64,000 nt of DNA from Psammoneis japonica. Lineage: Eukaryota. Where the stretch lies: assembly GCA_008632985.1 (NCBI GenBank), contig QPGO01000004.1, positions 124,001-188,000 on the forward strand, read 5' to 3'. A program made the translations under genes and the position numbers. Shown in pieces: positions 7,750-36,727 of this stretch. The notes beneath the pieces are model-generated. The model did not search any database. It was given only the letters and a program-made list of their open reading frames with translations, and had not been told where the DNA came from. How positions within the stretch are numbered: position 1 is the first letter of the stretch; every line of letters starts with the position of its first letter.

Positions 7750-9046
7750 TTATCGAAATCCACACTTTTTGATTTCGTTCTGATATTCAAAGGTGGTTCC
7801 GCTTCGAGCGTTGCACTGATAGTTCGTGTTGAGGCTGACAATAAAGTGAAACCAATAGGTTGGCAAGTACATTGCGTCCCCCGCCTGCATGACGACTTCG
7901 TTCACTTGAGCATTGCCAAAGTCGGGAAATTCCTTGAGATCGGGCTTGGACCAATTTACGGCCGAGTGCCGTCCAGACGGATGAGTTTGCGGGAACAGCA
8001 CCATATTTTTGCATTGATTGGGATGTGCCAGTATATACCGACGCTCACCACCCAACAAGACAATAAAATTGCGGCTCTGATCGTAATGCGTTTCTGCAAT
8101 AACACCCTTCATGCCAAATCGCAATTGATCCCACGTTGATCCTTTGGATTCACCATGAAAAATGACGGTTTCTTGGGAGAAAACATGGGCAACTCATTGT
8201 ACATGAATCCACTTTGTCCTTTGTAGGCGGCATTGATTCTCAAATACCAATGCTCGTGTTCTGCTTGGTTGTCATATCGTTCAATCGCTTCTGCCTTTTC
8301 AAGCCACTCCCGTACGAAAGTTTGGTGATCTCCGTTGGTTCCGTCCATCCGGGTGGAAGATTCCTTCGGTTTTTCCAGTACATCATGTGATTGTTCTTAC
8401 TGTATTCCGTCTTGTACTGTTGATGATGCAATAGATCAAACAAATAATGCCCATCGTTTCGATTCCAACGTTCTGAAGTTTGCCATAGGTCTGGATGATT
8501 TTGAATGACAAAAGGCACTTCTGCTTCACGATATCGCAGTGCTTTCTCGTAGTCATTTTCCCAGTCAAATATACAGAGGCCTTGAAAAATCCGTTTTGGT
8601 TCTGGTAGCGATGTATCATCGGGATTCCAGTTTCCAATTACATCCATAACGTTCCAAGCCATGGGGTAACCCTTGGGCGGATCTGCTGGGCAGTTGTGAA
8701 TGTCATACGGCATGCCGGATTGAGTCTGATAGGTATTTCTTCTCAGCCCAGTAACATAATCATGAATGCGCTTTCGATCTGACGGTGGAAACATTGATTC
8801 AAAATCATACTTTAGTCTTTTGAACTTGTCCAATGCCTTTGGATCAACAATTTTAGAGCGGCCATAAGGATCTACCCGGTCATGCACCCCAAGCATTGAC
8901 AGATCGACTTGGGCCGGATTTTCATTTTCCAGCTCATTCAAAGAGTGATGCAAAACAATGCCAGTCAGAATAAAAGTAACAACTGCACACACGATCAATC
9001 GTCCAACGACGACGCTGTTCTTCATGAAGTGCTGCGATGCCGCCAT
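7750..9046 (-). CDS. JmjC/cupin-like 2OG-Fe(II) oxygenase with N-terminal membrane anchor; two apparent frameshifts (~8310, ~8120)
   Basis: Three overlapping ORFs (8240..9046, 8109..8348, 7750..8124) join into one protein; HYD...GERRYILAHP...AGDAMYLPTYWFHFI gives the HxD...H triad; TM segment LIVCAVVTFILTGIVL. Confidence 0.8.
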
Positions 9047-11632
9047 GGTGGGTCAACTTTGTCGTGTCGCTGTCGTGTCGAGTGTTGTGTGCAGTGAAAA
9101 GCGGAAGAGAATTTTTGCGCTGCGCGGAGTTCGCAGTTCGGATCTTTTTGATGGATCTTGAAGCCATGTCCGTCCCTGTTGACTCTGGGGGCACCGTATG
9201 AGTTGAGACAGTGCCCTTTCTGAAGGCTGCGCTAGCTGCAGAGGAGAGCTGTGCCCAGAAACAAGAGAGCCCTCTAGAAAAGGTAGACAATGGAGGATGA
9301 TGCAACCAAGACTGTGCACAGGCTCATTGGAAAGCGCTGAAACTGTGCCAAGAGGATGTGTGAGAAATGAGCGCATGATGTCGTCAACACAGGGAACAAA
9401 CTCTCAGTGGCATCCACCAACAAATGACAAACAACCAGTTGCAATGACAATGACCAGCTGTGGCAACTGATGGAGCTCTGTTCACAAATGCTCAGCCTTG
9501 TCAGCGGCTGCACACCTGCGTGCGCTGTGCACCCGCCAGACACTTGTTGAGTCACGAGATGCCTGTTCTCTGGGGGGCCTGCAATGCCTCAAGTTCATGA
9601 TGTGTGTGCAAGTGCCCATCCCACACTCTTGCCCCCCACTCCGGGGCAAAGCGGTGGCTACGCTGCATGTCTGCAGAACCTCAAGTTCATGATGTGCACG
9701 AAGTGCCCCATCCCCACATTCCACGACCACACCCATCCAGGGTGTCACACCCAAAGCCATGTGCGCAATGACAACGTTGATGTCTGTTCATCAGAAGAGT
9801 TGCACACACAGCCAGGAAGTGCCAACAGTTTTTCTGACATTGTGGCTGACCAGTTGCTGCCAACAAGAAATCAGCAGCCCGCTGACAACTTACGACTGAG
9901 ACAATGGCAGCTCTCTCTCAATGGGCTGTGTTGAAGGCAATCAATTGGCTTCTTTTGGGAGTGATCGGCCCCATTGTCAAGAACAAAAGAGCATGACTGC
10001 AACAAAGAAAACTGCCAAATTCGTCATGTCATTGTCTTGCCATTGGCCTGGCAACACTTACCATGTGGCAGACCCATGTTCCCCAGTGCATCAAAGATGC
10101 TGCAGGGACCATGACTGTGGCAACATTTTATGTCGGTCACAACAAGACAATTGGTGGTGCTTGTTGTGCATGAAAACTGCAGCTGAAGACCAGACAAGCC
10201 CAGTCCACACCCAGTGGGATGGAGGCGCCAACAACACAGCAGAAAAAATGTGCGCCTGTCTTCAAAAGTCTGCTTCCTGGAAGGTGCAAGAGCTTCACAG
10301 CCATTTCTAGATCAGCCTGGAAGATGATGGCAAATGCTGAAAGAAGCACATTTGCAAACAATGCCGGCACACACTGTTGACAATCAACTGTGCAGAGCTT
10401 GACATGAGGAAGTGCCGAGAGGCCATGAAGTGAGTTTCAGAGGAACAATGAAAAGAAAATGATTGGCTCGGCAAATGCAGTCATCCATGTGGAAAAATCA
10501 GGTGCAGTTGGAAGAAGTGACCACTGCAAACATGTTCTCTCTTGAGAGGCCAAAGAAACAAGACAAGAAATGTGAGAATGTCATGGAGGCAGAATTGCAC
10601 AGAAAAAATGTGCTGCCATTGGGAACAAGAACGCAAAGAGCACAGCTGCCATGTCAGCAACGCTGCTCCTGAACAAAGGCACAGTGGATCATCCCCTCCA
10701 ACACCTTTGGTGTCTCTGTCATGGCACAGCTGCCATTTGTTCTAAAGTGCCCAAGGAGGTTGGCACAGTGCCAAAACTCTTGCTTGGGACAATCCCATGG
10801 GTGCTTGCGCAGAAAAGCAGGAAACTGCAGTGAATGAAAACATTGAGGCTCATTTCTGTGCACACACACCCAAGTTGTTGATCCTTGGTTGTCGTTGTTC
10901 ATTGGCCAGAGCACACTGACAATTTGAGCTGTTTGCTTGTCAGCTGGTGTGCTTTCTGCAATTTTGGCTTTCAGCGACACTTGCTTGCCACCCTGGCAAT
11001 GTTGACAATGTTCAGTGCATGCTCTCATGCTCTTGCTCCATGCTGTCATTCTGTCACCTTTGCTCCCTCTGTTCTTCAAACCACCACCCCGTTGTTTGCC
11101 CCATTGCCTCTTGCAGCCTGCCCTGCATCTTGGCATTCTTGGCTGTGCTGGTTGGCTGGCTCATCATGCCTGCTCCAATCTTTCATGCTTCAAAGAGAGC
11201 CAGTTTTTGTGACAGCTTTTTGTTGCAAGATGTGAAAGAAAAATCCCTGGCACGTTTTCTTTGGCAAGTGTGGTGCAATGCTGCTGTTTTTGCTCACCTG
11301 TGTGCAACGCTGCAGCACTTTGTTTCTTGTCCTTGGCTGATTTTGTCAACTTGTCTGAGTTTCAAGAAATGAAAAAGCACAAAAGGAAAGCAGCAGTTTG
11401 TTGTTGTTTGCCACAAGCTGCCTGCTCCCGTGTCAAACCTCTGACCTCTTGTCTTTCCCGCGGCGCTGGCATTTCTTTGTGTTGGCAGGTGCAGAGCCCT
11501 GGGTGTTGTTGGTGCCTTCAATCAGGTGCAGCACCTGTGTTTTCAAAGAGGACTTGTGTTTTGGCTCTTGTGATCTCGGCCAGCTCTTTGTGAGAAAGAC
11601 ATTTCACATTTGTGCTGACCTCTGCACACCAG

Positions 11633-11856
11633 CTTGTTTGTTTGTTTGTTTGTTTGTTTGCTTGCTTGCTTGCTTGTTTGTTTGTTTGTTTGTTTGTTTG
11701 TTTGTTTGCTTGTTTGCTTGTTTGCTTGTTTGTTTGCTTGTTTGTTTGCTTGTTTGTTTGCTTGTTTGCTTGCTTGCTTGCTTGCTTGTTTGTTTGTTTG
11801 TTTGTTTGTTTGTTTGTTTGTTTGTTTGTTTGTTTGTTTGTTTGTTTGTTTGTTTG
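11633..11856. repeat. (TTTG)n/(CTTG)n tetranucleotide microsatellite
   Basis: Directly visible ~224 bp tract. Confidence 0.97.
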
Positions 11857-12669
11857 TGTCTGGGGCTGCTGCTGGCACTGCAGAGCTGACATCTTTGTTG
11901 TGGCTGATCCACACAACCAACCCAGCAAGCAGCAGCAGCAGGCTGAGGGCACTGGCGGTCTTTGGCAGATCCCAGCAACGCTCCATGAACTGTGGTTGAG
12001 CGCCAAGCAGCGCAAGAAGGCTGGTGTTGTGCAGCTGTGGTGCCCTGTCTTCCCCTCCCTGCCAGAAGTGACGAGCACTTCAAACTGCAAACTCCAGAAC
12101 AAAAAAACCCATGGCAGTGCCAGCCAACCTGGCAGCAGCAAGCCGAGGGCATTGACAGTCTCTTGTGGACCCCAGGCAATGGTGCGGCAACTGCGGTTGA
12201 GCAGCGCAGCACCTTTTTGTGTGGCTGTGGCCCCACGTCACCATGTCCCAACAGGAGGAGCAAACTTGAAACTTCCTTGCTCCAAAGTGAAAGGACCACA
12301 AGGCAGCGCCAACAAACCCAACACCAGCTGCAAACTGAAGACACTGACGGCATCTGGCTGACCACAGGTGGCACTTTGAGGGTGGTTGTTGGGCACTGCA
12401 AGACTGGTCTTGTGATGTTGTGGCCCCATGTCACCTTGTGGTCACCGCGACTGCAGCCAGCAGACTTGACACCAAAGAAAGCCTGTTGGATGGACAACCT
12501 TTGTTCTGAGCTGCAAGCAGAAATCAAAGGCAGCATTTGTGTGACAAACACACACTTGCGCGACAAACATGGTGCAGGAGCAACACAGGCTCAAATGCAA
12601 GGCAACAGCTTTCTGTTTTTCAGCACCCCCAACAGACCCAACAAGCTGAGTGGAACCCTGGCACTGTGC

Positions 12670-13530
12670 AGCAGCTTTGTCAGCTTTGGCAAATTTGTCA
12701 ACTTTGGCAAGTTTGTTGACTCTGCCAGCTTTGTCAACTTTGGTGAAGAGTTTGGCTGCTTTGCAAACTTTGGTGGCTTTGTCTGCTTTGTCAATTTTGT
12801 CAACTTTGGCGACTTTTGTTGGCTCTGGCAACTCTGGCGAATTTGCCAACTTTGGCAAGTTTGTCAAATCTGTCAGCTTTGGCAAGTTTGTCAACTCTGT
12901 CAGCTTTGGCAATGTTGCCAACTTTGGCGAGTTTGTTGACTTTGAACTTTGGCACCTTTGTCTGCTTTGTGGCAATTTTGTCAACTTTGTCGACTTTGGT
13001 GACTTCGTCAGCTTTGTTGACTTTGGCAAATTTGTCAACTTTGGCAAGTTTGTCAGCTCTGTCAGCTTTGGCAAATTTGGCAAATTTGTCAGCTTTGTCA
13101 ACTTTGGTGACTTTGTCAGCTTTGGCAATTTTGCCAACTTTGTCAGCTTTGGCAACTTTGGCGAATTTGTTGACTTTGGCAAGCTTGTCAACTCTGTCAG
13201 CTTTGGCAACCTTGTCAAGTTTGTCAACTTTGTCAGCTGTGGTGCCAGCTTTGGTCAGTTTGGCGACTTTGCAGACTTTGGTGATTTCATCTTTTTTGGC
13301 AATTTTGTCAACTTGGTGCATTTGTCAGCTTTGTCAACTTTGGCGACTTTCTCACATTTGTCAGCTTGTTTGGGCAACTTTGTCAACTTTGCCAAGTTTG
13401 GCAACCTCGCCAGCTTTGGCAAGTTTGGCAACCTTGTCAAGAACTTTGGTGGTGAGTTTTGGTGACATTTTCAACTTTGGCGACTTTGTCAGCCAAAGGT
13501 GACAAAGTTGCCAAAGCTGACAAAGTGCCA
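12670..13530. repeat. Degenerate 9-bp-unit tandem array (AACTTTGGC / AAGTTTGTC / AGCTTTGTC variants), last units inverted
   Basis: Visible 9-bp periodicity; orientation flips at ~13495. Confidence 0.9.
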
Positions 13531-16500
13531 AAAACAGCCTCTCTCACACCTTTTTTTCTTTTCTTGTTTTCTCCTTTGACAACTGCCCCATCTTTTGTCA
13601 AAGCTGTCTTTTTTTGCTGCTTTCTGTCCACCACAGTTCACCAGCAGCACTTTGTTTTTCCAGCCTGCTCACATTTGTTTTAAACACATTTTCTTGCAAC
13701 ACACATGGCGGTTGATGGCTTGCTCATGTGTGTGCAATTGATGGTGAAAAAGAGATGCAGCGCAGAAGCCCAGCCCAAATCTCCTCATGAGGCTCCTCCT
13801 GTGGCATTGTCCCTGTTGCTGGCCAGTGTGTCAGCTGTTGCTTGTCATGCCATGTCAGGGTTGGGGCAAGGGATGTGGGAGAGGGAAAGAGAGAGACAGG
13901 AGAAACCAGCAGCCAAAATTGGGGTTGTGGGCAGCAGGGCTCACATTGCGCAATTTGTGCTCAGGTGGTGGGTGGGTCAGGTGGTGAGAGGAGAAAATGT
14001 TGCCCTTGATTTTTGTGTCTGTTTGCACTGTTGTTGGGTGATTTAAGTGGGTCTTGTGTTGCACTCATGTTTGGGAAAGTTGGGGGTGGTGTCAAGGGTG
14101 CACAAGTTGCAGAGATGGGCTGAAAGAGCAGCTCTTTAACACGCAAGTGTGTGAGCCACAAGTGTGTCTGAGGAGCCTGTGATCCCTTGGTCACAGCACA
14201 TGTTGTTTTCTTGGACTGGCTGTGCCAAGAGCCAAGTCAATCATTTGGGTGTCCATCAATGCACCGTTTCCTGAATGTGCCATCAAAATCTCCAATTCCT
14301 TTGTTTTGTCATGGCTTTGCTTGACTGCAAGAGCTGCGTCAGCTGTGGCAGCAAATTTCATCTCTTTTTGCTCTTTTCATCATGCGCGATGATTCCTGGT
14401 GCCCATTTTCATGTCATGGGCACTGCTTGTGCTCATGATGATTGTCGCAGTCATTTTGATTGTTGTTGCTGTCATCACTGTTTTGTTTTTGAGCTTTTTT
14501 GAAGACACGCTTTGACATTTTACAACCAGCCATGCTGTGGAGGTGTGTTTGATGTGCAGTTTCTTTTCACTGCAATGCTCTTTGTCAGCTTGCCTTGAGG
14601 GTCTTCTTGGTTGGTTGCCAAGTCATTGTTGCACATTTGTGCTTGTCTTTCAGCTCTGGCTGCTCAAGCCTCCTTTGAGGCAGGCTGTTGGGAAACAGTG
14701 TCATGGCATCTTGGTCTCCAGCTTGCAGCTGCTTGCTGATGGTGCCACCCGTTGTTGGTCACATGAAGCAATGCATGTTCACACTGCTTGTCCACAACTT
14801 CAGGTTGTGGAGTGCCTCTCCATCTTCACCTGCACCCAGCATCAAACATTCAAGACACTGGCGAGCTGCAAAGGACTCTGTTGTGCATGTTTCTGCAAAG
14901 ACAACTCTTCCAGTTGTTTGAGCTCCCAGGGTGTGTGGCCTGAGTGCACCTCAGATTGTTTTCAAGAGAATGAGTTTTGGCTTGGTGAGTTGATGCCAGC
15001 TCTGGATGGTGCTCATTGTGCGGTTGTTCTTGTGTTTTCTGTGGGAATCTCTTTGTTTGCATTGTCAAAGTCCCTGACAGTGTTGCCATGTGCTGAGTTG
15101 CACGCCACATTGAATTTTGCCCATCCTCCTGCTTCACAGGGCTTGTTTTCAATGACTCAGTTTGTCTCTTCCCAAACAGCACCATGCTTCAGGTTTGCTG
15201 TTTTCCGTTCCAGCAGCAAAGCATTTTGTTTCATGTTCAGGGTCATCCTGGAGTGTGCAAGAGTGACAAACTCTGCTTGCTCAATTTTTTGTCTGTTTTT
15301 CAGGGAGAGTTGACCCTTCAACCACCGGACTTTGCTCACTTGCGTCACAAATGACATGGCAAATGAAGCAATTTTCAGAAGATGGGCACGACACTTCACT
15401 CGCGCGATTTTGTTTTGGAGCGCGCATTCGCCAAAAATCTGGGGGAACCCTTTTTGCAATTTAGAAAGTTCAGTGTCAACTTTTGACACCGGGTTTTTTG
15501 CAAGCTTCATCTGTGAATGGAGAGGAGCCAAATCTCAACCTTTGACAATGGAGGTTGCCATGAGCTGCTGTCACAAACAGACAAACAATGCCACACCCTT
15601 GGAGCAAATCTCCGCCGGCGGAGATTTGCTCCCAATTGGCAAATGCGTGTGGCACACTTCACACAAATTGTGCGCCATGTGACATTTTCATGCTGTGCCC
15701 ATCACATTGTTGTTGCTTTGTTTTGTTGCAAGGAGCGCCATCAAAGGCTTGCTTGCCATGCTTGAAATCTGACTGAGTCATCTTTGGCAAATGATTGTGA
15801 GTCATGCTGCTCAAAAGAAATCTTGGATCCTTGCGAGCCATTTCTTGCATGACACACAGAGGTGAGCACATTGCATCAAGTTTGCAGCTGCGCTGTCTGT
15901 CAAAAAGGAATTGGCTCAATGAGAAGTTCATTTTGAAAGGAGAGTCTTTTTGTTGTTGTCAATCATGCAACAAGGAACACATTGGATTGAGGGGTGCACC
16001 ACTGTTGTGAGACACAGCGGATTGATGGCTGAGTTGTTGTTTGGTGTGTGGTGCCCCACACAACAACAAGGCACATGCGGCAGACACACTGGAAAAAGCA
16101 ATGGGCAACTGAGCTGAAGCTCTTTTAAATGAACAAATCAACTCTGAACAAGATGCTGGGCTACAAAACAAAGCACAAATCGACGACCGTTGAAAAATTG
16201 GCTGTCAACCTCAAACAACGACAAGGCGGCACCAGATTTGTGAGACTGACAATGAAGATCCAGCATCAGAACATTGTTTGGAATCTAATTGCAGGGATCA
16301 CCTTGGTTGAACTTTGAAAACTTGTGACACCTGTGAAGAGTGCTGTCACAGGCACAAAATTTTTTGATTTTTGTCAACGGATCTTCTCATTGCAAGAGTG
16401 AAAAGAACATGTTGCACACAGGGGTCTCCAAAGGTTTTTCTTCCATGTTAAATTGTCTGAGCCAACTGGCAATGGCAAACTGTGGCATTGTCATCAATGT

Positions 16501-17156
16501 TGTCAGCAATCAGTTGACCAGTGCTTGGCACCACCAAAAGTCATGGGCCGCTCCTGCATGGACATTCGAGAGCCAGGTGTGGGAGCGATGCTGCTCCAAT
16601 CAAAATGCTCTGTGACCCACATGTTCAAGTCAGACAACTTTATGATTTTAAGCACAAGCTTGCAGCTGGCAAGTGGGGGCTGGGCAGAAGCACGTGAAAG
16701 CCCCAGAAGTTCAGAGAGTGTGGCACACAGCACACACAGAGAGCTGTTTTTCTTCCATCCAGGAGCACACCCGCCCAACTTGTCAGAAGACGGAGTTGCC
16801 CATGACACAATCCTGTGCCCCCCCATGAGTGTGCTGCAAGTTGATTAATTAGAATGACAGAAAAATCTGCGGTCTCCATGCTGAGACGATGGAATGCTGA
16901 TGCATGCGTCGCGGTTGGAAAAATGGGAAGGGGATCGGAACGTCGGTCACATCCGGTCCGAATGACGTCACAGGAATGACTGTTTCCCTGGCATGTGACC
17001 GCGCGACCGCGTCGCTCACTTTTTTCGAGGTTGGATCGGGATTCCAGATTCGGGAGGCATCTTTGGTTGGATCGACGTCGTTGCCAACCTTTGAAGCAGA
17101 GTGGAGTGCTGTGTCCTGGTTGCCGCCCTTTTAAGCAGTTTACGAGGAACTTGTGA

Positions 17157-18749
<1,593 letters not shown>

Positions 18750-22821: not shown

Positions 22822-23925
22822 CTATTGTGTGCTAATTCCAACCAGCTCCTTCAGCATGGCAGGGATTACAAGCGCTGCAAACAGCGGATTATTTCTCACA
22901 TAGTCAACAGGCCGGAAATGAAAGAGAGAGGCGCCAATGGAAATGCCTTTGCCTGCATAATCCACTCTGTGCCACATCCAAGTTGGTACCCAGAGAGCAT
23001 CTCCAGCTTTTGTAACCACGTGATATCGCGGTACGTGATTGAGATGTGAAGCAAAGGATGCAAAAAACGCACGGCCATCAGGAGCTAATGCTGGTCGAAG
23101 TTGGAAGGAATACTGTTGTGAAACAAGTGTCCATTTCTTTTCTCCCATGAGTTGGACAGCGACATTTCCAATCGGTTCACAATGCAAATCCGTCCGAGGC
23201 TGGGCTGGTGTCGATTTATTTTCTCTGCCAACATTTCCAGCAGCAACGAATAGAGGGACGGTAGTCAATGCAGGAAGCAAACGAAATGGCCCACTCCCAA
23301 CTAAATCTTGAGGCTCAAAGTAACTCCCAAAGAGTCGGGTTAGTACGTTGTTCGGTGCCACTTCTTGAACAAGATCGGGGTAGGTCTGCAACAGTAATTG
23401 AGTACCAATCTTGTGTGGGTAACCCATTCGTGAAATATTAAAGACAACCTGCCCAAGAGGAGCTTCGCTATCAGGGGTAAGTGCCAACTCCTTGGTTGCG
23501 TCACTAAAGTATGGCACTCTCAGTTTCTCTCGGAGCAAGCCTTCCAATGATAAGTTTCGGTGGGGATCATGAAGCGTTGAAGAATTCCATAAGCCTTTCA
23601 GATATAATGGACGTTGGCGCCAATCTTTCCCGTGTAGTTCCTCCACTCGTGATAAAATATCATCTCTCCGAAACGTCACGTCCAGCACGGGAACATCCAA
23701 CACGAAATCATTTTCGTTCGACGTGAACAAGTCCCATGCTTTCTGTTGCATCATGGACGCTTTTGAGCGAAGGAGAGGAGTAAGGCCGGGTATCATTTGA
23801 GCAGCAATCCATATTAACTTGGTTGAAACCGGGGAATTACATCCCCCATTCCACAAAGCTATCGAGGCGGAGAACACGGGCACCGCAATAACCACAGCAG
23901 AGACCCGCCACGCACGCATCGGCAT
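22822..23925 (-). CDS. JmjC/cupin-like domain protein with hydrophobic N-terminus
   Basis: TDLHCEP...QLMGEKKWTLV...GDALWVPTWMWHRV (HxE...H). Start placed at MPMRAW; uncertain. Confidence 0.8.
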   Translation of the reverse strand: MPMRAWRVSAVVIAVPVFSASIALWNGGCNSPVSTKLIWIAAQMIPGLTPLLRSKASMMQQKAWDLFTSNENDFVLDVPVLDVTFRRDDILSRVEELHGKDWRQRPLYLKGLWNSSTLHDPHRNLSLEGLLREKLRVPYFSDATKELALTPDSEAPLGQVVFNISRMGYPHKIGTQLLLQTYPDLVQEVAPNNVLTRLFGSYFEPQDLVGSGPFRLLPALTTVPLFVAAGNVGRENKSTPAQPRTDLHCEPIGNVAVQLMGEKKWTLVSQQYSFQLRPALAPDGRAFFASFASHLNHVPRYHVVTKAGDALWVPTWMWHRVDYAGKGISIGASLFHFRPVDYVRNNPLFAALVIPAMLKELVGISTQ

Positions 23926-24179
23926 GGAAAAACTCTGGCTCCCCTGGTGTTTAGTATCTTTTGACGATAGCAAAATCTCCAATTGCCATGGTGAAACGAC
24001 ATATCCCCGTGCGCATCGCGTCTCCGATCTCGTTTTCGCGCCGGTTTTGAAGCGCGAGCGACGAGCGAGCGAGCGATGGGCGGAGCGAGCATGTGTCTCT
24101 GTCGTCGCATTGTCTTTTGCATGAACATGGGGACATTTTGATCGTAACACAAACGCAATCTATGTGTCTAATTATTGAC

Positions 24180-25200
24180 TTGCCAACACAGGTCTGTTTG
24201 ACTTGCTGCCAGGGGGCTTGAGTGCCCTTGTTGCCAGCAATGGTGTGCTGGGGGAGCAGCGCAACAACAGGAGCAGTGACCACGAGGTTGGCTGCACCAA
24301 GAACTTGCCATGCAATGTCAGAGTGTGTCTCATTGGTGGAAGCAATGTGAAGGTGAGGCTAAGTGAAATTGCATCCTGTGCTGCAGTGAGAATGAAATGT
24401 CCTCACACATCACCCCCACAACAAAGGCCATCGGTGGCTCGGTTGGGCGTGGGAGCACCCTCACAAAGAGACCGGCTGTCATTGTGGACGAGACAGCCAG
24501 CTGCTTTCTGTCACATGTCAAGAGCAGGAATTTCAGTCAACAAATCAGGACAATTTCTGCCAGGCAGGGGGGCCAAGTCTGGTGAGTGGCTGCAACCTCC
24601 TGGAGACAGGAAGAGGGGCACCATGGGAAGCAGAGCCGCAGTGACAGCTTGGGCACCAGCTTTGGCAGGAGCACCAAAATAAAAATGCCACAACAAGACA
24701 GGCTTGTGGTTTCTTTCTCCACAAAGTGGGCCTGCTTAAATGGCATCATGAGGATGCCCAGTGTGGGGGAAGTTGCGAAAGTGGCAGCACGATCATTTTG
24801 GGCAGACAAGAGACACAAAACACCCCTCTTGAAATGTCATTGGATGGAACCAACAACCATGGAGACTGCTTTGCCAACAACATCCCAAAAGTTGCTGGTG
24901 AGCTCCAGCTTGTTGCCCTTGTTGATGAAAGGCTCTGGAGCTTGGCAGCCGGCACAAGACATTCCTGCCGCCGCAGACCATCATCAGGAATTGATCTGTC
25001 TGACCATGGGTGTGATTGCAGATGTTGCTGGGATTGGTGTCATGCAACAGAGGAAAGTGACAAGGATGGTGGCCATGATGGTGTAGAGCAGTGTTCAGAA
25101 GGAGAGAACATGCCAGTGTGAATGAGAGCGAAAAACCCAAAACTGTGAGAGTTGTGAGACTCTGTTCAGAAAACTGCACAGAAATCCACAGAAAAAACGC
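24180..25200. other. CpG/TpA-depleted hypermutated domain 2
   Basis: ~1 kb with almost no TA and few CG between two ordinary genes; origin not recognisable. Confidence 0.75.
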
Positions 25201-27082: not shown

Positions 27083-27421
27083 CAGGGAATCGTCGCCCCC
27101 TGCTGTGTTCTTTGAAGTGCTGAGGTCGTTGTGCGTTTTTTTAGAAGAGACGCAGAACTCTAGCTAAGATAGAGTAGTCTGTCCGTCAGTTTTCTTGATT
27201 GATCGGCCATTGACCCCCGTTGATTAACGGTTTTGATGGCGGAAATGGCCTTCTCGGCTCGAGCTCGGCTTCTCACTAAATCGTTAGCTTTGCCGTGTTG
27301 AGAATGTTGAAGGTGTTTACGTAGAATCGTTCGTAGCCCCTGGTATGTTGGGGGCCCTACGACTGAATGTACTGGGTGGTGTGTGCCGAGGGGCCTCCAT
27401 CATCACAAAAAGAGCAAGAAA

Positions 27422-28886
27422 ATGGCGCGCCCGAAGAAAAAGGCGAGGCACCAGGGAAGGTTTGGTGCCCGAGCCCCTTCCGTATATGATGAAAATGGGC
27501 AAAGGCGTTTTCATGTTGGTCATCAGCATCGACTCCGCATGGTTTCTGATGGTGATGATGTGTGGAGACGCCGAAATGACAGTGACAGACGAAAGGGCAT
27601 GTGGGACTCTATCGTGCATCGTCATGGACGAGAAATGGGATTTTTGAGTCAGGACTCAAGCCCAGAGCTTGAAGAATGTGAGTCATCAAACCCTCTGTTT
27701 CAAGAAACGAGGGTGCGTGTAAACTCCATCCAGCACAAGCCCAAGAAATGCGCGGCTCGGGCCACGACCCAGAGCAATTTCGAGTGCTTTTTGAAGGCAA
27801 AATTCCCGAATGATCCACACACGCAGCATCTGAATGGATTGCTCCAAAAAACAGAGGATCGTCATATGAACCCATCAGTTGTTCTAATGAGACAGAAGTT
27901 GGAGCCACCGCGAGAAGAAAGTCTCATTCTGTCTTGCACGAAGTGCTTGCGAGACGGGGCTCCTGTTGGCAGGAGTTTGAAGCACGGAATGACATCCCTT
28001 GAGCTCAATTTATTGTCATGTACATTGATTAAGTTTTCACACTCGAAGGGTCTGAATTGCACTGCTGAGATTAAAAGGTGTTGGAGTCATGTGAGGAGGA
28101 GGATGATGTTGCTCGTGCTGAAGCTTTTGATCTCAAGGTTTTTCTGCCCAAGGCTTGGGATCAGCTCTGGCGACAAACTCCAGGCCTTTCTCACACAAAA
28201 AAAAGGTTCGCATTTGGTTGAGACTGCTTGGTCAGCTCTCTGTCATTGGGCATGCATCAGATGTGTCTGAGCACTGTCCTTTGGTGTCTAAGACAACTCT
28301 GCCTCCTGGGTCGTCGACTGCAAATTGGCTAAAGGATGGGACGCCTTGGCACTTGGACATTTCTTTTGTCGACTGGAAGGGCAGGAAAGCAACAAACGTC
28401 GGGAATCCACACCACATTCGAATTTGTCATAATCCAAAAAACTTGAAATATGACCCAGTGACTTGGATGCTTAAGGAACGGCGTTGTCGTGGTGAAGTCG
28501 AAACAAGGAAGCCGGACGCTCCAGCATTTTTTTTCGTTTCGGAGCAAACTTGGAACAAGCAGCTCAAGAGGTGCATTTGCAAGCCACTGGGACTGTCACA
28601 CACGTCCCACAGCATTCGCCGCTCGGCCGCTCAGTGGGCTTCTCGTTGCGGTGCCAACATTGCCGTTGTTCGAAACGTTGGTCGATGGGAGTGTCTGGCG
28701 GAATTACTTGAGTGCGTCGCCAAGGGAAACAAACGGAATCGTCTTGCGAGTGAAGACGACGAAGACCCAATTTTTAAGTTTTGGCCGTTCTTTCCCAAAA
28801 CGTCCGTGACGGCCTTGGCCACCACCACAGAACAAGCCAATGCAATGCAGTCAAGGGCGCCAACGGTCCGTTTCAACCAGTTTTAA
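27422..28886 (+). pseudogene. Tyrosine recombinase (Crypton/DIRS-type YR), left arm, frameshifted and hypermutated
   Basis: Joined ORFs 27383..28270 and 28155..28886: MARPKKKAR (NLS-like)...IG[H]ASD...WKGRK...HSIRRSAAQWA...VGRW...LLE[C]V, matching R..K..HxxR..W..Y once CGT>CAT and TAC>TGC are reverted. Confidence 0.8.
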
Positions 28887-30041
28887 AAACAACAGCAGTC
28901 ATTCTCATGTTGAACTCTTGTCTTTTTTTGAAACTAGAGGCAGTCGCTCTGCTGTTGTCAGTTTTGTCTTGACATGACTGATGCAAGTCTCGCACGACTG
29001 ATGTCAGTCTCATGCCAGAAGTTGACACAAAGCTGTTTTGGACATCTGCCACTCGTCGGCTTTCTTGATTCGCCGAGTCGCCCGTAGAATGATTGTTGTG
29101 CTGGTTGGACGCAAGCTTCTCCCAGTCTGGATTTTGAATCTGAGCTTCAGTCTTCAGCTCGCTACATTTTGACAACATTTCTGCCTGCTTGAGATTGATC
29201 TCATGTGGCAGTGTTCCAAGTTTCTTAATCGTCCAATGAGCTTTTCGGCACTGTGCAAGCTTCGAGTCACCGCCAAGATTGTGCCTCTTGAGTTCAGCAG
29301 ACGACCACAGGTGGATTGGAGAATGCACTTGATTTCTTGTTTCATCTGCAACCTTTTCTTCATGTGCACGGACCACTGCAGTGGCATGTGTCTCCTCTTC
29401 TGTTTTAAAATGCAACTTTGAAACAAAATTCTTGTTCCCCCCACCTTGTGGTAGAGTCAATGTCGACGGAGGCAACCGCTTGCCAAGTGGTGCTGAGTCC
29501 GGCACTTGTTCTTGCCGGGGAGGAGCTGGCAGGCAAGAAGGATCCATCACATGATTTGCCTGCACCTGGCGAAACCCATGACAAATCATTTCATCTCTCA
29601 TGGCTTCTGTTGAAACAGAAAACAATTCGTCAGTGAATGGATTTGCAAAAAACAACGCATCTTTGAAAAGAGCGACTTGCTCCAACACAATCGGCCGTGT
29701 AGACTGATTGGTCACTCCGGCCCCAGCAACGGCACCACACTCGTTGATGCCACATTTTGTCAAATGGCACTCGGCATCCCTTTCAAAGGAGTCCAGGTTG
29801 AACTCCCCAAATTCCTTGTCCCAATCCCTTGTTGCTGACATCGTGTCGAACAACTCTTCAACAGTTTGTGACGGTGGATGGGGGCAAATCGAAGCCATCT
29901 CGCCATCAGAGTCTCCAGCTTTGGCATCATTGGCCATGTTGTCAGCCATGTCGAGGGCTTGATTCACATCTGACGAGTCTAAAAACGGCGACGTGACACA
30001 TGAAAATGCAGCTCGTCATCATCGTTCTTTTGAGAAATCAT
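28873..30041 (-). pseudogene. ORF2 of the YR element (unknown protein, ~390 aa), left arm, convergent with YR
   Basis: 364 aa ORF 28873..29967; probable upstream ATG at 30041 separated by an indel; mirrored at 30393..31560. Confidence 0.6.
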
Positions 30042-30392
30042 CAGCTGGAGCTCGGAGGGAGAGGTGGGGTTTCCCGTGTTGACCGGGGGTTCGAGTCTCG
30101 TTGATCACCGCAGACGCTCCGCAGGTGCCTGCACTGGAGGTTTCGTTCATCGAGGCCCTCGATCAATGATCGACCCACAGAAAGCTGCCTCCACAGCTGG
30201 CAGGTCACGCTTGCACCCCCTGCGCACTGCTCTGTTGGTTCAGAGGTGGCTTTCTGCGGGTCGATCATTGATCGAGGGCCTCGATCAACGAAGCCTCCAG
30301 TGCAGGCACCTGCGGAGCATCTGCGGTGATCAACAAGACTTGAACCCCCGATCAACGTGGGAAACCCCACCTCTCCCTCTGAGCTCCAGCTG

Positions 30393-31560
30393 ATGATTTC
30401 TCAAAAGAACAATGATGACGAGCNTGCATTTTCATGCGTCGTGTCACCGTTTTTGGACTTGTCAGATGTGAATCAAGCCCTCAACATGGCTGACAACATG
30501 GCCGATGATGCCGAAGCCGGAGACTCTAATGGCGAGATGGCTTCGATTCACCCCCATCCAGTCACAAACTGTTGAAGAGTCATTCGACGCGACATCAGCA
30601 ACAAGGGATTGGGACAAGGAATTTGGGGAGTTCAACCCGGACTCCTTTGAAAGGGATGCCGAGTGCCATTTGACAAAATGTGGCATCAACGAGTGTGGTG
30701 CAGTTGCTGGGGCCGGAGTGACCAATCAGTCTACACGGCCAATTGCATTGGAGCAAGTCGCTCTTTTCAAAGATGTGTCACCTTTTGCGAATCCATTCAC
30801 TGACGAATTGTTTTCTGTTTCAACAGAAGCCATGAGAGACGAAATGATTCGTCGTGGGTTTTGCCAGGTGCAGGTGAATCATGTGATGGATCCTTCTTGC
30901 CTGCCAGCTCCTCCCCGGCAAGAACAAGTGCCGGATTCAGCACCACTTGGCAAGCGGTTGCCTCCGTCGACGTTGACTCTACCACAAGGTGGGGGGAATA
31001 AGAATTTTGTTCCAAAGCTACATTTTAAAACAGAAGAGGAGACACATGCCACTGCAGTGGTCCGTGCACATGAAGAAAAGGTTGCAGATGAAACAAGAAA
31101 TCAAGTGCATTCTCCAATCCACCTGTGGTCATCTGCTGAACTCAAGAGGCACAATCTCGGCGGTGACGCGAAGCTTGCGCAGTGCCGAAAAGCTCATTGG
31201 ACAATTAAGAAACTTGGAACACTGCCACATGAGATCAATCTCAAGCAGGCAGAAATGTTGTCAAAATGTAGCGAGCTGAAGACTGAAGCTCAGATTCAAA
31301 ATCCAGACTGGGAGAAGCTTGCATCCAACCAGTGCAACAATCATTCTGCGGGCAACTCGGCGAATCAAGAAAGCCGACGAGTGGCAGATGTCTAAAATGG
31401 CTTTACGTTAACTTCCAGTGTGAGACTGACATTGGTCACATGAGACTTGCACCAGTCATGTCAAGACAAAACTGACAACAGCAAAGCGACTGCCTCCAGT
31501 TTCAAAAAAAGCTGAGAATTCAATGTAAGAATGACTGCTGTCATTTTTTAAACTAGTTGA
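30393..31560 (+). pseudogene. ORF2 of the YR element, right arm (frameshift ~30560, premature stop 31395)
   Basis: ORFs 30357..30575 and 30505..31395 nearly identical to 28873..29967. Confidence 0.6.
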
Positions 31561-33007
31561 AACGGACCATTGGTGCCCTTGACCGCATTGCATTGGCTTG
31601 TTCTGTGGTGGTGGCCAAGGCCGTCACGGACGTTTTGGGAAAGAACGGCCAAAACTTAAAAATTGGGTCTTCGTCGTCTTCACTCGCAAGACGATTCCGT
31701 TCATTTCCCTCGGCGACGCACTCAAGTAATTCCGCTAGACACTCCCATCGACCAACGTTTCGAACAACGGCAACATCGGCACCGCAACAAGAAGCCCACT
31801 AAGCAGCCGAGTGGTGAATGCTGTGGGACGTGTGTGACAGTCCCAGTGGCTTGCAAATGCACCTCTTGAGCTGCTTGTTCCAAGTTTGCTCCGAAACAAA
31901 AAAAAATGCTGGAGCATCCGGCTTCCTTGTTTCGACTTCACCACGACAACGCCATTCCTTAAGTGTCCAAGTCACTGGGTCGCATTTCAAGTTTTTTGGA
32001 TTATGACAAATTCGAATGTGGTGTGGATTCCCGACATTTGTTGCTTTCCTGCCCTTCCAGTTGACAAAAGAAATGTCCAAGCACCGAGGCGTCCCATCCT
32101 TTGGCCAATTTGCAGTTGATGACCTAGGAGGCAGAGTTGTCTTGGACACCAAAGGACAGTGCTCAGACACATCTGATGCATGCCCAACAACAGAGAGCTG
32201 GCCAAGTAGCCTCGACCAAATGCGAACCTTTTTCGTGCAAGAAAGGCCTGGAGTTTGTCACCAGAGCTGATCCCAAGCCTTGGGCAGAAAAACCTCGAGA
32301 TCAAAAGCTTCAGCGCGAGCAACATCATCCTCCTCCTCATGTGATTCCAACACCTTTTTAATCTCAGCAGTGTGATTCAGACCCTTTGAGTGTGAAAACT
32401 CAATCAATGCACATGACAACAAATTGAGCTCGAGGGATGTCATTCCATGCTTCAAACTCCCACCAATGGGAACCCCGTCTCGCAAGTGCTTCGTGTGAGA
32501 CAGAATGAGACTTTCTCGCAGTGGCTCCAACTTCTGTCTCATTAGAACAACTGATGGGTTCACATGACGATCCTCTGTTTTTTGGAGCAATCCATTCAGA
32601 TGCTGCGTGTGTGGATCATTTGGGAATTTCGCCTTCAAAAAGCACTCGAAATTGCTCTGGGTCGTGGCCCGAGCCGCACATTTCTTGGGCTTGTGCTGGA
32701 TGGAGTTCACATGCACCCTCGTTTCTTGAAACAGAGGGTTTGATGACTCACATTCTTCAAGCTCTGGGCTTGAGTCCTGACTCAAAAATCCTGTTTCTCG
32801 TCCATGACGATGCACGATAGAGCCCCACATGCCCTTTCGTCTGTCACTGTCATTTCGGAGTCTCCACACATCATTGCCATCAGAAACCATGCGGAGTCGA
32901 TGCTGATGACCAACATAAAAACGCCTTTGCCCATTTTCATCATGTGCGGAAGGGGCTCGGGCACCAAACCTTCCCTGGTGCCTCGCCTTTTTCTTCGGGC
33001 GCGCCAT
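31548..33007 (-). pseudogene. Tyrosine recombinase, right arm, disrupted
   Basis: ORFs 32258..33046 and 31799..32170 mirror the left-arm YR; HSIRR has become HSIHH; internal stops. Confidence 0.78.
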
Positions 33008-33879
33008 TTTCTTGCTCTTTTTGTGACGATGGAGGCCCCTCGGCACACACCACCCAGTGCATTCAGTCGCAGGGCCCCCAACATGCCAGGGGCTGTGAAC
33101 GATTCTACGTGAACACCTTCAACATTCTCAATGGCAAAGCCAACGATTTAGTGAGAAGCCGAGCTCGAGCCGAGAAGGCCATTTCCGCCATCAAAACCGT
33201 TAATCAACGGGGGTCAATGGCCGATCAATCAAGAAAACTGACAGACAGACTGCTCCATCTTAGCCAGAGAGAGGGCCTCTGCTCTGGAGGCAAAAAAAGG
33301 GTTCAGGGGGGGAGGTGGGGCTCCCCAGTTTATTTGTCTGGCAAGATGGGTTATGAGCCACTAGGAGGTGCCACGTAGGAGCAGTCTCCAGCACGCACTC
33401 AGCAGCACGTGGCACGGACCACGACGAGAGCATGGTGCACAGAGCACGGTCACAGTGCACGCAAACTGCAATGAAGATGCCATCCATTGCAAGAAGATGC
33501 CATTGAACAAACACACCATGGAAGATGATGCGCCTGCTGCGGATGAGTCTTTTCTCTCCTGAGGAACTTGTTCAATGAGAACCAAACAAGAGTTCTCAGA
33601 CAAGATCGCACACTCTCTCTCTTTCTTGCATGCAGCAAAAGGCCTGTCTGGGTGCCTGGCCAGAGCAGACTGCAGTTTGATGTGTGCAATGGATTGCATG
33701 ATGATGGTTCAACCTAGACTGGTGCCATGCTGTAGAGGGCATAATCCCCAGGTTTGACAGGCAGTGTGATGCATTCCAAAAACTGGGCCCCCACTTTTTT
33801 GTCGGGGGGGGGGTCCCTTTTTGTTGCGAAGTGCTCCCCCCACAGCTCTGTGTCAGAGGAAGCCACCAATCGAGCCAAG

Positions 33880-35575
33880 CTGCACTTGTTTTGCGCCATG
33901 CCATGCCACAAGTGCAGGTGTGAAGTGCCGCGGGACTACAAACATGCCTTGGCCCTTGATGAGCACAATGGCAGCCACAAGTGGGGAGATGCAACAGACC
34001 TCAAGATGACTCAACTGGGCAAGTGCAAAGTCTTCCATGATTGTGGGCACTGCAAGGACTCTGGCACCCCACCAGCAGGGCACAAGAAGATTTGGGCGCA
34101 CCTTGTCTGCGATGTCAAACATGACGGCAGGCACGAAGCATGGCTGTTTGCTGATGGGCACCTCACAGACATGCCCGCAGACAGTGTCCATTCTGGTGCA
34201 GCATCCCTCCCTGGCCTCCGACTGATGATCTTCCCAGCTGAGCTCAATGAGCTGCTGGAGACATGGGCAGCCAATGCTGGCAATTCCCGCCTCGAAGCCA
34301 CAGCCAAGGAGAAACTGCACATCATTGCAGGTCCCGAATTTTTAGATTTGGAAGGACACACCCTTGTCATCCACAAGGCTCTGCATGGTCTCTGCAGCTC
34401 TGGCCTCAGGTGGCATGAGCATTTTGCCAATTGTCTGCGAGCTGAAGGGCTCTTCCCACACTGTGCCAAACCCGACATCTGGTTGCACTGGAATGGTGAC
34501 CACCATTGTGATCATGTGGCAGCACATGCAGACGACCTGGCCTTTGCCATGAAAGATCCCCAGGTCTTTGTCTGCAATCTCATGGAGAAACGCAAGCTCA
34601 AGCTCAAGGGCACTGGACCACTGGAGTTTCACCTTGGTTGCAACTTCTCTTGCAACTCCGATGGCACATTGTGCCTTGCTCCTTGCAAGCATGTTGAATG
34701 CATGGTTGAGAATTGCGCGTGCCTTTTTGAGGAGAATCCTTGTGCTGATGTGCTGCCCCCTCTCAAAAAGGGAGACTGCCCCAAGCTCAACACCTTCAAA
34801 GAACTGCTGGAACCCGATGGCAGCATCCTCTTCAACTTCAGTCCTCAGTTGGTTCCCTGCAATGGGCTGCATTGCTTGGTCACATTGACATCACTGTGGC
34901 TGTCATGTCTCTCTCTCTCTTTCTGGCTTCCACATGGCACCCTGTCAAGGCCATCTGGACCATGCCAAATGGTGTCTGTGGACACTTGTCCAAGATGTGA
35001 CATGGTGCCCTGTGTGTGCACACCACTGAGGAACCTGATGTGGAGGAATTGATTCCCAAAGATGTGCCCAAGCCTCTTGGCAAGTTTGTCACCAGCATGA
35101 CTCACTGTGCTGTGATTTGAGCTTGTTCCATTGCATGCTCGCTGGACGTTCCGTCACAGCAGGCATCACTCATTTCCTCAACAAGTTTCTGGCTGATCAG
35201 TTCTCCCAAGAAACAAGCCAAGGTTGAGACTGCAACTTGTAGATCTGAGTTTGTTGCTGCCAGGACATGTGTTGAACAGATCATCAATCTGCACATCACA
35301 TTGCATTGCCTTGGCATCCTCATCTGTGGCACATGTTGCATGTTTGGGGACAACAAGTTTTTGTTGTGGACAGTGCCACCATCCTGCACTCCAAGTTGCA
35401 CAACAAGCAACAACCACCTTCTCATTCCATTGTGCGCATGAGGTGATTGCCTCTGGTTTCCTTGAGTTTCACTTTGTCAAAGGTTTTCCTGCAACCATGC
35501 TGACACCCTCAGCAAACACTGGGGTCACTCCCAGCCAGGTTTGGAACCTTCTCTGTCCCCTCATGTTTTGGAGCT
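33880..35575 (+). mobile_element. Ty1/copia LTR-retrotransposon relic (reverse transcriptase + RNase H), hypermutated
   Basis: PRDYKHALALD..KW, HLVCDVKHDGRHEAWLFADGHLT, KALHGLCSSG, VAAHADDL (from YVDD); downstream KKQAKVETAT.SEFVAARTCVEQ, MFGDNK, HEVIASG, ADTLSKHWG. No LTR recognised. Confidence 0.92.
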
Positions 35576-36495
35576 TCAATCCTGAGGCCTTCAGTCAATC
35601 CAACTTTGAAGCTGTTGCTGTGGACTCCTCAAGCAAAACTGTGGAATGACAGGATTTAAACAAGATTTTAGTTTGTCGCGCACAATTGTGTGTGCTCTTG
35701 GCTCCACATGCAACTTTTGATGCAGTTTTCTTTTGAGCCACTTGGCTCACAAGAACAATGGCAGCATTGCCAACATTGCTCAACCCCAGTCTTTTGGTTC
35801 CTGCAATGGTCTCTGCACAGAGATTCATCTGCCATTTAGACAGCAGAAAGGAGTCATTGGTTTCTTCCACCCATTTCCTCTTCAATTCTGTGAGGGAGGT
35901 TGCACACTGCAATGTTGTGATCATTTGACAAACAGCCAAAAGATGCAAAATGTCTTTTGAAATGTTGGTGGGAACCAATGACTGGGTTTGCTTCACCGAT
36001 GACATCCAAGCCAGCAAACTTCAACTTTTTTTGCTGTTGTTGATGAAAAGCAAGGCTGGGGCTCAGCAGCTGGCAGCATGATTTTTTGATGACCACAGAC
36101 CACCTTGAGGAGTTTGTCCAACTGATCAGGGTGAGTTTGTTCATCTGACCAGGGTGTGACTGCAAATGTTGGAATTGGTGTTGTGACAGAGAGAGAAGAA
36201 AGCAACAAGCAAAGTGCGCCATCAGATTTGTCGAAAGCTGCCAGCAGCTGCACATGCCAAAAATCACAGCAGACAGCAACACAAGCTTTTTGATTTGAGA
36301 TTGAGTGACACACATTTTGTCACACAAATGGGTGCATAAAAACAAGCACCACAATGATGAGAAAGAGCACAGCAGCAGCACGATGCTGGCTCTCTCTGGC
36401 AATGTTCCACAGCCACGGTGCGCGCACTGACATGCCATGTCATGAAAGAGGGGCCTCAAGGATGGGAGCAGATGAAGAAGAAAGTCACAAAAAAA

Positions 36496-36727
36496 AAGGC
36501 TTGCAGAGATTCTCTGGATTCAAATTGTCAATCGGATGGACAGAAATTCCAGAAGAAGAGGGGCACAACACTGTGAAAAAAGCAAGGTCAACCTCACAGG
36601 GGAAACAGGACAAGAACAACAAACAGTTCACTCATGTCACGCCGTTCAAGGACAATGTTGGGGAACCAGAAAAGGAGACAGAAAAGGAGAGCAGCACCAA
36701 CACAGAAGGCTTGCAGAGATTCTCTGG
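36496..36727. repeat. 22-bp direct repeat AAGGCTTGCAGAGATTCTCTGG, two copies 210 bp apart
   Basis: Copies at 36496-36517 and 36706-36727; each contains the inverted repeat CAGAGA-T-TCTCTG. Confidence 0.85.

What the first reader, a model, noticed from the sequence alone, without database searches (positions are those of the whole stretch)
9290..16845. Sharply bounded TA/CG-free domains make up roughly 40% of the window
Seen: four domains (about 9.3-16.8, 24.2-25.2, 27.6-37.1, 55.2-64 kb) share the same dinucleotide voids. They switch to normal composition within a few hundred bases of intact genes. Loss of TA removes TAA/TAG stops and Tyr codons, giving dense Cys/His/Gln/Trp-rich pseudo-ORFs in all frames. 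Inference: a two-compartment genome in which the mutagenic process is domain-targeted, probably chromatin-guided. Gene predictors would overcall proteins here.
Basis: partly seen in the sequence, partly recalled or inferred. Interest (0 to 1): 0.75.

Follow-up and report, generated by a model that had tools for sequence, protein, structure and literature searches.

The report
Diatom repeat domains stripped of TA
In this probable diatom, blocks made largely of old mobile DNA have had nearly every TA letter pair mutated to TG or CA on the chromosome, and CG lost more slowly, by a targeted process that resembles one reported so far only in an unrelated alga.

Summary
Confirmed. Four domains (37-42% of the window) have TA o/e 0.08 against 0.65 in flanking non-ORF DNA, and CG 0.31 against 1.00, at nearly unchanged GC; TG+CA gains equal the losses. 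The host is probably a diatom. Three domains are transposon/repeat mosaics; the 1-kb one has no second copy found. In a young copia family elsewhere in the genome, T[A>G] hit 854 of 5,572 strand-sites, other A>G 94 of 28,275 and CpG 110 of 7,889. Both strands are hit equally, after insertion (LTR pairs differ), so TA loss is a fast in-situ process and CG loss a slower, co-localised one. Identical LTRs have opposite fates by position, a tandem gene duplicate is spared, and the context ranking (TAC>TAT>TAG>TAA; AAR/CAR near background) matches TadA-derived adenine base editors. Best reading: an adenine-directed DNA mutator spreading in cis over silenced mobile DNA; enzyme and chromatin guide are inferred, not shown. 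Closest known: TpA hypermutation in Bigelowiella natans (bioRxiv 2026), not fungal RIP. Seven paper searches found no diatom report. This scan had already noted the same process on other pieces of this genome.

The parts
9288..16843 (.). Domain 1: TA/CG-void mosaic of degenerate repeats (TA o/e 0.03, CG 0.26)
   Evidence: 59% of its bases match other fetched loci of the genome
10809..11519 (.). Dispersed degenerate repeat, related to a stretch in domain 4
   Evidence: 43 of 49 non-self matches fall here (67-83% identity); inverted match 11100-11150 / 58961-59011
11634..11857 (.). 4-bp microsatellite, 56 copies
12675..13440 (.). 9-bp minisatellite, 84 copies, with relatives on other contigs
14460..16714 (.). 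Repeat shared with G000:C29 (87% and 95%), interrupted at about 15311-15708 by a ~400-bp high-copy insert
   Evidence: (32 near-full-length matches of the insert; 40 of 327 candidates scored); a contig skips 15311-15708
24176..25198 (.). Domain 2: TA/CG-void stretch with no second copy found (TA o/e 0.07, CG 0.20)
   Evidence: self match only; the tool warns that this does not prove rarity; one contig spans 21538-25467 at depth 62.9 vs 59.8 for the neighbouring gene contig
27158..33269 (.). Head-to-head pair of a multi-copy ~3-kb element with a probable tyrosine-recombinase ORF; partly converted (TA o/e 0.18, CG 0.74)
   Evidence: arms 27158-30191 / 30243-33269; 187 substitutions = 35 TA vs TG/CA, 30 TG vs CA double sites (60 bases), 69 CG vs TG/CA, 17 other transitions, 6 transversions; other copies; Phage_integrase only E 0.079, motif otherwise read by eye
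33270..36944 (+). Ty1/copia remnant; reverse transcriptase frame 33745-35049 with Tyr replaced by His/Cys (TA o/e 0.07, CG 0.23)
   Evidence: RVT_2 E 1.1e-5, under the curated cut-off; 67% aa identity to the pol frame of L262 over 33868-34821; 52 non-self matches; 14 conserved Tyr columns read H7 C4 Y1 R1 F1
55261..64000 (.). Domain 4: oldest-looking void (TA o/e 0.06, CG 0.07), degenerate dispersed repeats; continues about 7 kb past the window
   Evidence: 50 non-self matches, 65-81% identity; L055
25213..27109 (.). Control: lipase-region duplicate, copy 1, not converted
   Evidence: 89% identical to 37081-38933; 58 TA kept, 12 TA>TG/CA vs 8 in the reverse direction; 53 of 136 substitutions are transversions
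37081..38933 (.). Control: lipase-region duplicate, copy 2, not converted (Lipase_3 frame 37284-38210, minus strand)
8240..9052 (-). Flanking ORF with normal TA, about 240 bases from domain 1
   Evidence: paralogue in L057
17157..18749 (+). Flanking GH1 glycosidase gene with normal TA, about 310 bases from domain 1
   Evidence: PF00232 E 6.5e-171
22822..24159 (-). Flanking cupin/JmjC frame with normal TA, abutting domain 2
50143..54804 (+). Flanking AMP-binding/PP-binding gene with normal TA, 457 bases from domain 4

Best explanation
The domains are mutational scars on mobile/repeated DNA. SHOWN: (1) A:T>G:C transitions at TpA, on either strand, accumulate in chromosomal copies after insertion until TpA is nearly gone; once a TA has become TG or CA it is no longer a target. 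(2) CpG>TpG/CpA runs about ten times slower but is raised in the same zones, so old domains lose both while GC stays level. (3) Where a base lies matters more than its sequence or copy number: each family has its own first-hit region and the loss fades along the element and apparently into the flank. (4) The base 3' of the adenine ranks C>T>G>A. INFERRED: the target is silenced (probably CG-methylated) chromatin that nucleates and spreads in cis (about 0.65); the TA chemistry is deamination of adenine to hypoxanthine in DNA by a TadA/ADAT2-type enzyme, fixed at replication (about 0.5); the CG part is ordinary 5mC deamination (about 0.8); the effect is genome defence, killing elements by missense change (Tyr>His/Cys) rather than by stops.
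For: L021 vs L047 (89.6%): 109 of the 123 aligned TA became CA (55) or TG (54), 1 became CG; 25 of 122 CG lost. Family A, 11 of 14 full-length copies scored at sites where the 3 least-touched natural copies agree: T[A>G] 854/5572, A 38/8611, C 39/9663, G 17/10001, C[G>A] 110/7889, transversions 32/67613. Strand odds 0.98 (0.79-1.24) after context; adjacent changes on the same strand 396/768 vs 397 by permutation. 32 LTR pairs: 206 TA vs TG/CA sites, 27 TG vs CA, 27 CG vs TG/CA, 30 other transitions, 14 transversions. Family A keeps TA in the 3' LTR (86 vs 3), the other families in the 5' LTR (93 vs 24). Pooled loss per 500 bp along family A.48 .68 .68 .52 .48 .42 .27 .20 .19 .11 .09 .01 .02. 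TA in the first 200 bp of the 5' flank falls with 5' LTR loss (rho -0.70, p 0.005, n 14). CG loss 71/2418 in high-TA-loss zones vs 21/3553 in low zones. Context TAC .229, TAT .158, TAG .112, TAA .073; in high zones AAC+CAC 33/1192 vs 4/1799 in low zones, and AAR+CAR 7/2669; a passage of PMC10879117 gives ABE editing as highest at TAY and lowest at MAR. Survival of TA 4-mers in the window's own domains follows these rates (rho -0.72, p 0.019, n 10). Polarity in the window: conserved Tyr to His/Cys in 11 of 14 columns while Pro 14/14, Gly 19-20/23, Leu 20/22 are kept. ADAT2-like, TadA-like and two A_deamin genes and several C5-DNA-methyltransferase genes are present.
Against: No enzyme is tied to the process; the deaminases found are of kinds expected for tRNA editing, and GAN contexts (6/2786) are as low as MAR. 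Amphioxus ADAT2, the natural DNA-editing precedent, preferred GAA and TCG in E. coli, not TAY (PMC10354150 passages). T[A>G]Y is the same event as R[T>C]A, so sequence cannot say which base is attacked. No methylation, chromatin or RNA data were available. The 11 copies are not fully independent (L119/L120/L121 and L127/L129 share 3' flanks; same-direction changes 62.7% vs 57.7% expected). The flank correlation lacks empty-site alleles and could be spreading inward. Domain 2 and parts of domains 1 and 4 were not identified as mobile DNA. Outside this genome the signature was found in 1 of 120 RT homologues (P0209, 8 of 19 conserved Tyr), 0 of 80 metagenome loci, 0 of 120 long polyproteins and none of 10 clusters of close copies; all these sets favour intact elements.
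Confidence: 0.72

Rival explanations
1. Same targeting, but the attacked base is thymine (an oxidised or otherwise modified T in RTA that mispairs with G), or adenine is first methylated at TpA and then deaminated.
For: R[T>C]A is indistinguishable from T[A>G]Y in sequence. Modified thymines at TA steps in dinoflagellates are recalled, from no call.
Against: The ranking, including the minor AAC/CAC/AAT targets, matches a known adenine deaminase profile. The Tet_JBP search was blank but rang in no control, so it carries no weight.
Confidence: 0.13
2. Error-prone patch repair by a pol eta-type polymerase, triggered by T:G mismatches from 5mC deamination, as in the A:T phase of somatic hypermutation.
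For: CG loss and TA loss co-localise; five Y-family polymerase loci are present.
Against: In high zones AA sites change 23/2119 vs TA 648/1519, and only 2 transversions occur at A; no strand-coordinated runs; TA loss reaches 100% where CG is almost intact. The pol eta spectrum (WA, many transversions) is recalled, from no call.
Confidence: 0.07
3. A true RIP-like trigger: pairing of homologous copies induces the TA mutation, whatever the chromatin state.
Against: The 1.9-kb, 89% tandem lipase duplicate is spared; three 6.6-kb copies about 98.5% identical to 11 others are nearly untouched, and identical LTRs differ in fate; domain 2 has no second copy found.
Confidence: 0.05
4. Editing of transposon RNA or cDNA (ADAR-like or reverse-transcriptase error) during transposition.
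For: ADARs favour a 5' U (stated in the B. natans preprint); two A_deamin genes exist; L128 has 99.7% identical LTRs around a converted body.
Against: LTRs, identical at insertion, differ at TA in both directions; no strand bias; a DNA element, minisatellite-bearing DNA and flanks are hit too.
Confidence: 0.02
5. Reverse polarity (TA-rich copies made by RIP-type CA>TA), foreign low-TA DNA, chance or assembly artefact.
For: None found.
Against: Conserved Tyr are lost in the void copy; TA-rich copies share their TA sites and have 1,419-1,431-aa frames with 3% Tyr; TA+CG loss equals TG+CA gain; run contigs agree.
Confidence: 0.01

Closest known systems
TpA hypermutation of integrated NCLDV and virophage DNA in Bigelowiella natans (Mettrop et al., bioRxiv 10.64898/2026.01.13.699255; parts 1-4 of 5 read, figures and supplements not seen)
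   Same: TpA>TpG/CpA on both strands, in situ, confined to regions of foreign/mobile origin, not needing a second copy there; low-TpA CDS enriched for transposon domains; ADAT2 proposed as candidate.
   Different: Rhizarian, not stramenopile; there the long-term scar is mild (rho TpA 0.45 in the NCLDV region; 124 low-TpA clusters) whereas here it is near-saturating (0.03-0.14) over about 40% of this window; here CpG decay is coupled, minor non-TpA targets, a 3'-base ranking and cis gradients are seen (the words diatom, CpG and trinucleotide occur 0 times in its text). Their rate was measured in mutation-accumulation lines; here it is inferred from copies.
Repeat-induced point mutation (RIP) of ascomycete fungi (features recalled; RIPCAL abstract start seen)
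   Same: Transition hypermutation of repeats on both strands at a YpR step, giving a two-compartment genome with sharp edges and dead transposons.
   Different: RIP is C:G>T:A, mostly CpA>TpA, lowers GC and creates stops; here TpA>CpA/TpG is the exact reverse, GC is level and stops are removed. Homology alone did not predict hits here.
TadA-derived adenine base editors and amphioxus ADAT2/3 (PMC10879117 and PMC10354150, passages)
   Same: A>G in DNA; ABE ranks TAY highest and MAR lowest, as measured here.
   Different: ABE is engineered and guide-targeted; amphioxus ADAT2 favoured GAA/TCG. No enzyme was tested here.
5mCpG decay in CG-methylated diatom transposons (DNMT5; PMC9998398, passages)
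   Same: Explains the slower CG>TG/CA component; diatom TEs are CG-methylated in the species studied there.
   Different: Does not account for TA loss, which is faster and comes first; methylation was not measured in this genome.

Membership tests
B. natans-type TpA hypermutation | T/A>C/G transitions at TpA on both strands | tested here: met
B. natans-type TpA hypermutation | Acts on chromosomal DNA in place | tested here: met
   LTR pairs
B. natans-type TpA hypermutation | Confined to regions of foreign or mobile origin, host genes spared | tested here: met
   domain 2 unidentified
B. natans-type TpA hypermutation | Mutations only on TpA | tested here: inconclusive
   648 of 706 A>G changes in high-loss zones are at TpA; AAC/CAC/AAT and CpG are also raised; the published sample (about 230 events) may be too small to show this
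B. natans-type TpA hypermutation | About 1000-fold rate, episodic among clonal lines | not testable with these tools
   needs mutation accumulation; copy-to-copy patchiness is compatible
B. natans-type TpA hypermutation | ADAT2 homologue with HxE-PCxxC and the N113-type residue | tested here: inconclusive
   L066 shows HAE, EPC and a GCRNDRFGG stretch in separate exons, read by eye; that N is described as conserved in eukaryotic ADAT2, so it does not discriminate
Fungal RIP | C:G>T:A polarity with CpA>TpA preference | tested here: not met
   T[G>A] (=CpA>TpA) 16/9740 vs T[A>G] 854/5572
Fungal RIP | Triggered by duplication irrespective of function | tested here: not met
   lipase duplicate spared; near-identical copies and LTRs differ in fate; selection on the lipase copies cannot be excluded
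Fungal RIP | Premeiotic timing | not testable with these tools
   no life-cycle data
Fungal RIP | Dependence on RID/DIM-2 type methyltransferases | not tested
   PF00145 loci exist but were not classified
Pol eta-type A:T mutagenesis | WA targets with substantial AA and transversion share (recalled) | tested here: not met

The most novel reading that the evidence does not exclude
This diatom lineage has a natural adenine base editor: a TadA/ADAT2-type deaminase recruited to silenced chromatin, nucleating at family-specific sites and spreading in cis, which rewrites mobile DNA to saturation. If the same enzyme class acts in Bigelowiella, adenine-directed genome defence is an old, patchily retained SAR pathway parallel to fungal RIP.
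Probability: 0.4. Interest if true: 0.92.

Novelty: new variant of a known kind. Interest (0 to 1): 0.74.

Why it matters
It would be the second eukaryotic lineage with TpA-directed A:T>G:C hypermutation of foreign DNA and the first where it saturates a large genome fraction and can be read as a time series in young elements. The 3'-base ranking gives a direct assay for finding the enzyme, and a natural double-stranded-genome adenine editor would interest base-editing work. Practically, converted elements keep open frames of up to 2,279 aa and old domains spawn Tyr-free ORFs, so gene counts, LTR dating and standard RIP indices mislead in such genomes.

Tried and rejected
No RNA holder listed for window 17000-24100, so expression was not tested. 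Rfam: 0 matches. Tet_JBP search blank and uninformative. A general 5'-to-3' polarity, suggested by family A, was rejected: the other families keep TA in the 5' LTR. An apparent sense-strand bias (462 of 779) vanished after context correction. Strand-coordinated processive runs: none. Breadth beyond this genome: 0 of 80 metagenome loci (the best 80 of 508), 0 of 120 long polyproteins under 1.5% Tyr, no Tyr>His/Cys excess in 10 clusters including two with Fragilaria crotonensis members (some short members gave no alignment) or among 3 Cylindrotheca closterium copies; all biased to intact elements, so absence elsewhere is not shown. No contig joint across a whole domain appeared among the joints shown (4 joints not shown). 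Domains 1, 2 and 4 could not be given a transposon class. Paper searches for a diatom description: searches found none; the library lacks most subscription papers. Papers seen: Mettrop preprint parts 1-4 of 5 and a term search (supplements closed, figures not held; its Fig. 2B and Table S2 may bear on context); PMC9998398, PMC10879117, PMC10354150 passages only; all others search listings only.
Full report
Observation. The voids are real. A two-state HMM marks 36.9% of the window, 42.4% if the third block is counted whole. TA o/e is 0.08 in the domains, 0.54 in outside ORFs and 0.65 in outside non-ORF DNA; CG o/e is 0.31, 0.95 and 1.00; GC is 0.486, 0.483 and 0.456. Domain 1 has 17 TA against 364 expected. 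The sum of TA, CG, TG and CA per kb is the same inside and outside (238.9 vs 237.8), so the missing TA and CG reappear as TG and CA. The CG void is not uniform (0.07 to 0.74). Contigs of a public DNA run reproduce the listed pieces of domain 1 without substitutions (possibly the same sample). The pseudo-ORF claim holds: 53 ORFs vs 4.3 in base shuffles, Tyr 0.1%; 0 of 55 selected domain ORFs have a Pfam match.

Host and content. The window is G000:C5:124001-188000 of a 91.4-Mb assembly. All 9 organism-labelled homologues among the 120 listed for the PhyH gene are diatoms (classification recalled), so the host is probably a diatom. Normal-composition parts hold intron-poor genes. Domain 3 is a head-to-head pair of a multi-copy element with a probable tyrosine recombinase (Pfam support weak) followed by a copia remnant. 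Domains 1 and 4 are mosaics of dispersed repeats, a microsatellite and a minisatellite; 59% and 24% of their bases match other loci I fetched (a lower bound). Domain 2 found only itself.

Polarity. At 14 Tyr columns conserved among 120 homologues, the window's reverse transcriptase reads His 7, Cys 4, Tyr 1, Arg 1, Phe 1, while Pro, Gly and Leu columns are largely kept. Between the two arms of the inverted repeat, 164 of 187 substituted bases lie at TA, CG or TG/CA sites. Between a TA-normal and a TA-void copia copy, 109 of 123 TA became CA (55) or TG (54) and 25 of 122 CG were lost.

Time series. I fetched 16 stretches; 14 hold a full-length 6.58-kb copia of one family (L131 served domain 1 and L132 did not match). 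Scoring 11 copies at sites where the three least-touched natural copies agree: T[A>G] 854/5572, A[A>G] 38/8611, C[A>G] 39/9663, G[A>G] 17/10001, C[G>A] 110/7889, transversions 32/67613. So TA loss is about 11 times faster than CpG loss and comes first. There is no strand bias after context (odds 0.98, 0.79-1.24) and no strand coordination (396/768 vs 397). Across 32 LTR pairs (14 of this family, 18 of the 20 stretches; L244 and L259 showed no pair) 206 sites are TA vs TG/CA, 27 TG vs CA, 27 CG vs TG/CA, with 30 other transitions and 14 transversions. LTRs are identical at insertion (established), so the process acts on the chromosome. The copies are not wholly independent: some share 3' flanks and same-direction changes slightly exceed expectation (62.7% vs 57.7%).

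Targeting. In family A the loss is highest 0.5-1.5 kb into the element and fades to 1-2% at the 3' end; the 5' LTR lost 61/121 and the identical 3' LTR 4/110. In the other families the 5' LTR is the part that keeps TA (93 vs 24). TA in the first 200 bp of the 5' flank falls as the 5' LTR is more converted (rho -0.70, n 14). In the window, the arm end next to a host gene keeps TA that the other arm has lost, and an 89% tandem lipase duplicate between two domains is spared. CpG loss is five times higher where TA loss is high (71/2418 vs 21/3553). I read this as nucleation and spreading in cis, as heterochromatin does; that step is inference, since no methylation, chromatin or RNA data were available.

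Chemistry. The base 3' of the adenine ranks C .229, T .158, G .112, A .073 (direction fit 1: 0.43: 0.27: 0.22). In high-loss zones AAC and CAC are also raised (33/1192 vs 4/1799 in low zones) while AAR and CAR stay at 7/2669 and GAN at 6/2786. Surviving TA 4-mers in the window's domains follow this ranking, TTAA surviving best. A passage of PMC10879117 reports ABE editing highest at TAY and lowest at MAR, which points to a TadA/ADAT2-type deaminase. Against a firm call: the event could equally be written R[T>C]A; amphioxus ADAT2 preferred GAA and TCG (PMC10354150 passages); and the deaminase genes found (9 PF00383 matches, 4 PF02137 matches in two genes) are of ordinary kinds. Pol eta-type repair is disfavoured by the near absence of AA targets and transversions (its spectrum is recalled).

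Comparison. The closest system is TpA hypermutation of integrated viral DNA in Bigelowiella natans (bioRxiv 10.64898/2026.01.13.699255; parts 1-4 of 5 read), a lead that came from earlier scan notes and that I checked. It has the same step, direction and in-situ action, and also names ADAT2 as candidate. It does not mention diatoms, CpG or trinucleotide context, and its long-term scar is much milder. The finding works like RIP in logic but fails RIP's polarity and duplication tests. Seven searches found no diatom description. Outside this genome I found the signature in one unnamed protein of 120 (P0209) and not in 80 metagenome loci, 120 long polyproteins or 10 clusters of close copies; those samples favour intact elements, so the distribution is open, though the process may be patchy.

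Verdict. Observation confirmed; interpretation partly supported. New variant of a recently described kind: interest 0.74. This scan had already noted the same process on other pieces of this genome; I did not see the 3'-base ranking, the family-specific cis gradients or the TA-CG coupling in the few lines shown of those notes.

Noticed in passing
L075-L077, L081 (G000:C301, C297): Multi-copy C5-DNA-methyltransferase-domain genes, 91-96% alike, are themselves TA-void with CG largely kept; host duplicates or element-borne enzymes.
   Followed up: partly
L128 (G000:C103:35600-45300): LTRs 99.7% identical around a body with 146 TA changes: either very fast in-situ conversion that spared the LTRs or transposition from an already converted parent.
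   Followed up: no
L243-L262: Converted copia copies keep open frames of 1,400-2,279 aa with 0.6-1.5% Tyr and would be annotated as intact.
   Followed up: partly
L153-L156 (G000:C40, C79): Two separate A_deamin (ADAT1/ADAR-type) genes; no other Pfam domain in the exons scanned.
   Followed up: partly
L065:313-1785 (-): Frame joining a zinc deaminase domain to a 2OG-Fe(II) oxygenase.
   Followed up: no
P0209 (unnamed ENA protein): Copia reverse transcriptase from another source with 8 of 19 conserved Tyr changed to His/Cys and other residues kept.
   Followed up: partly
L119/L120/L121 and L127/L129: Full-length copies that share a 3' flank but not a 5' flank: recombinants, segmental duplicates or assembly chimeras.
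   Followed up: no
window 49207-54804 (+): NRPS-like gene (AMP-binding, PP-binding, hexapeptide repeats) split over two adjacent frames.
   Followed up: no
window 39707-40772: Third, more distant copy (68-80%) of the lipase-region duplicate.
   Followed up: no
window 19110-19197: Short CT/CTAG-rich tandem repeat between genes that keeps its TA.
   Followed up: no
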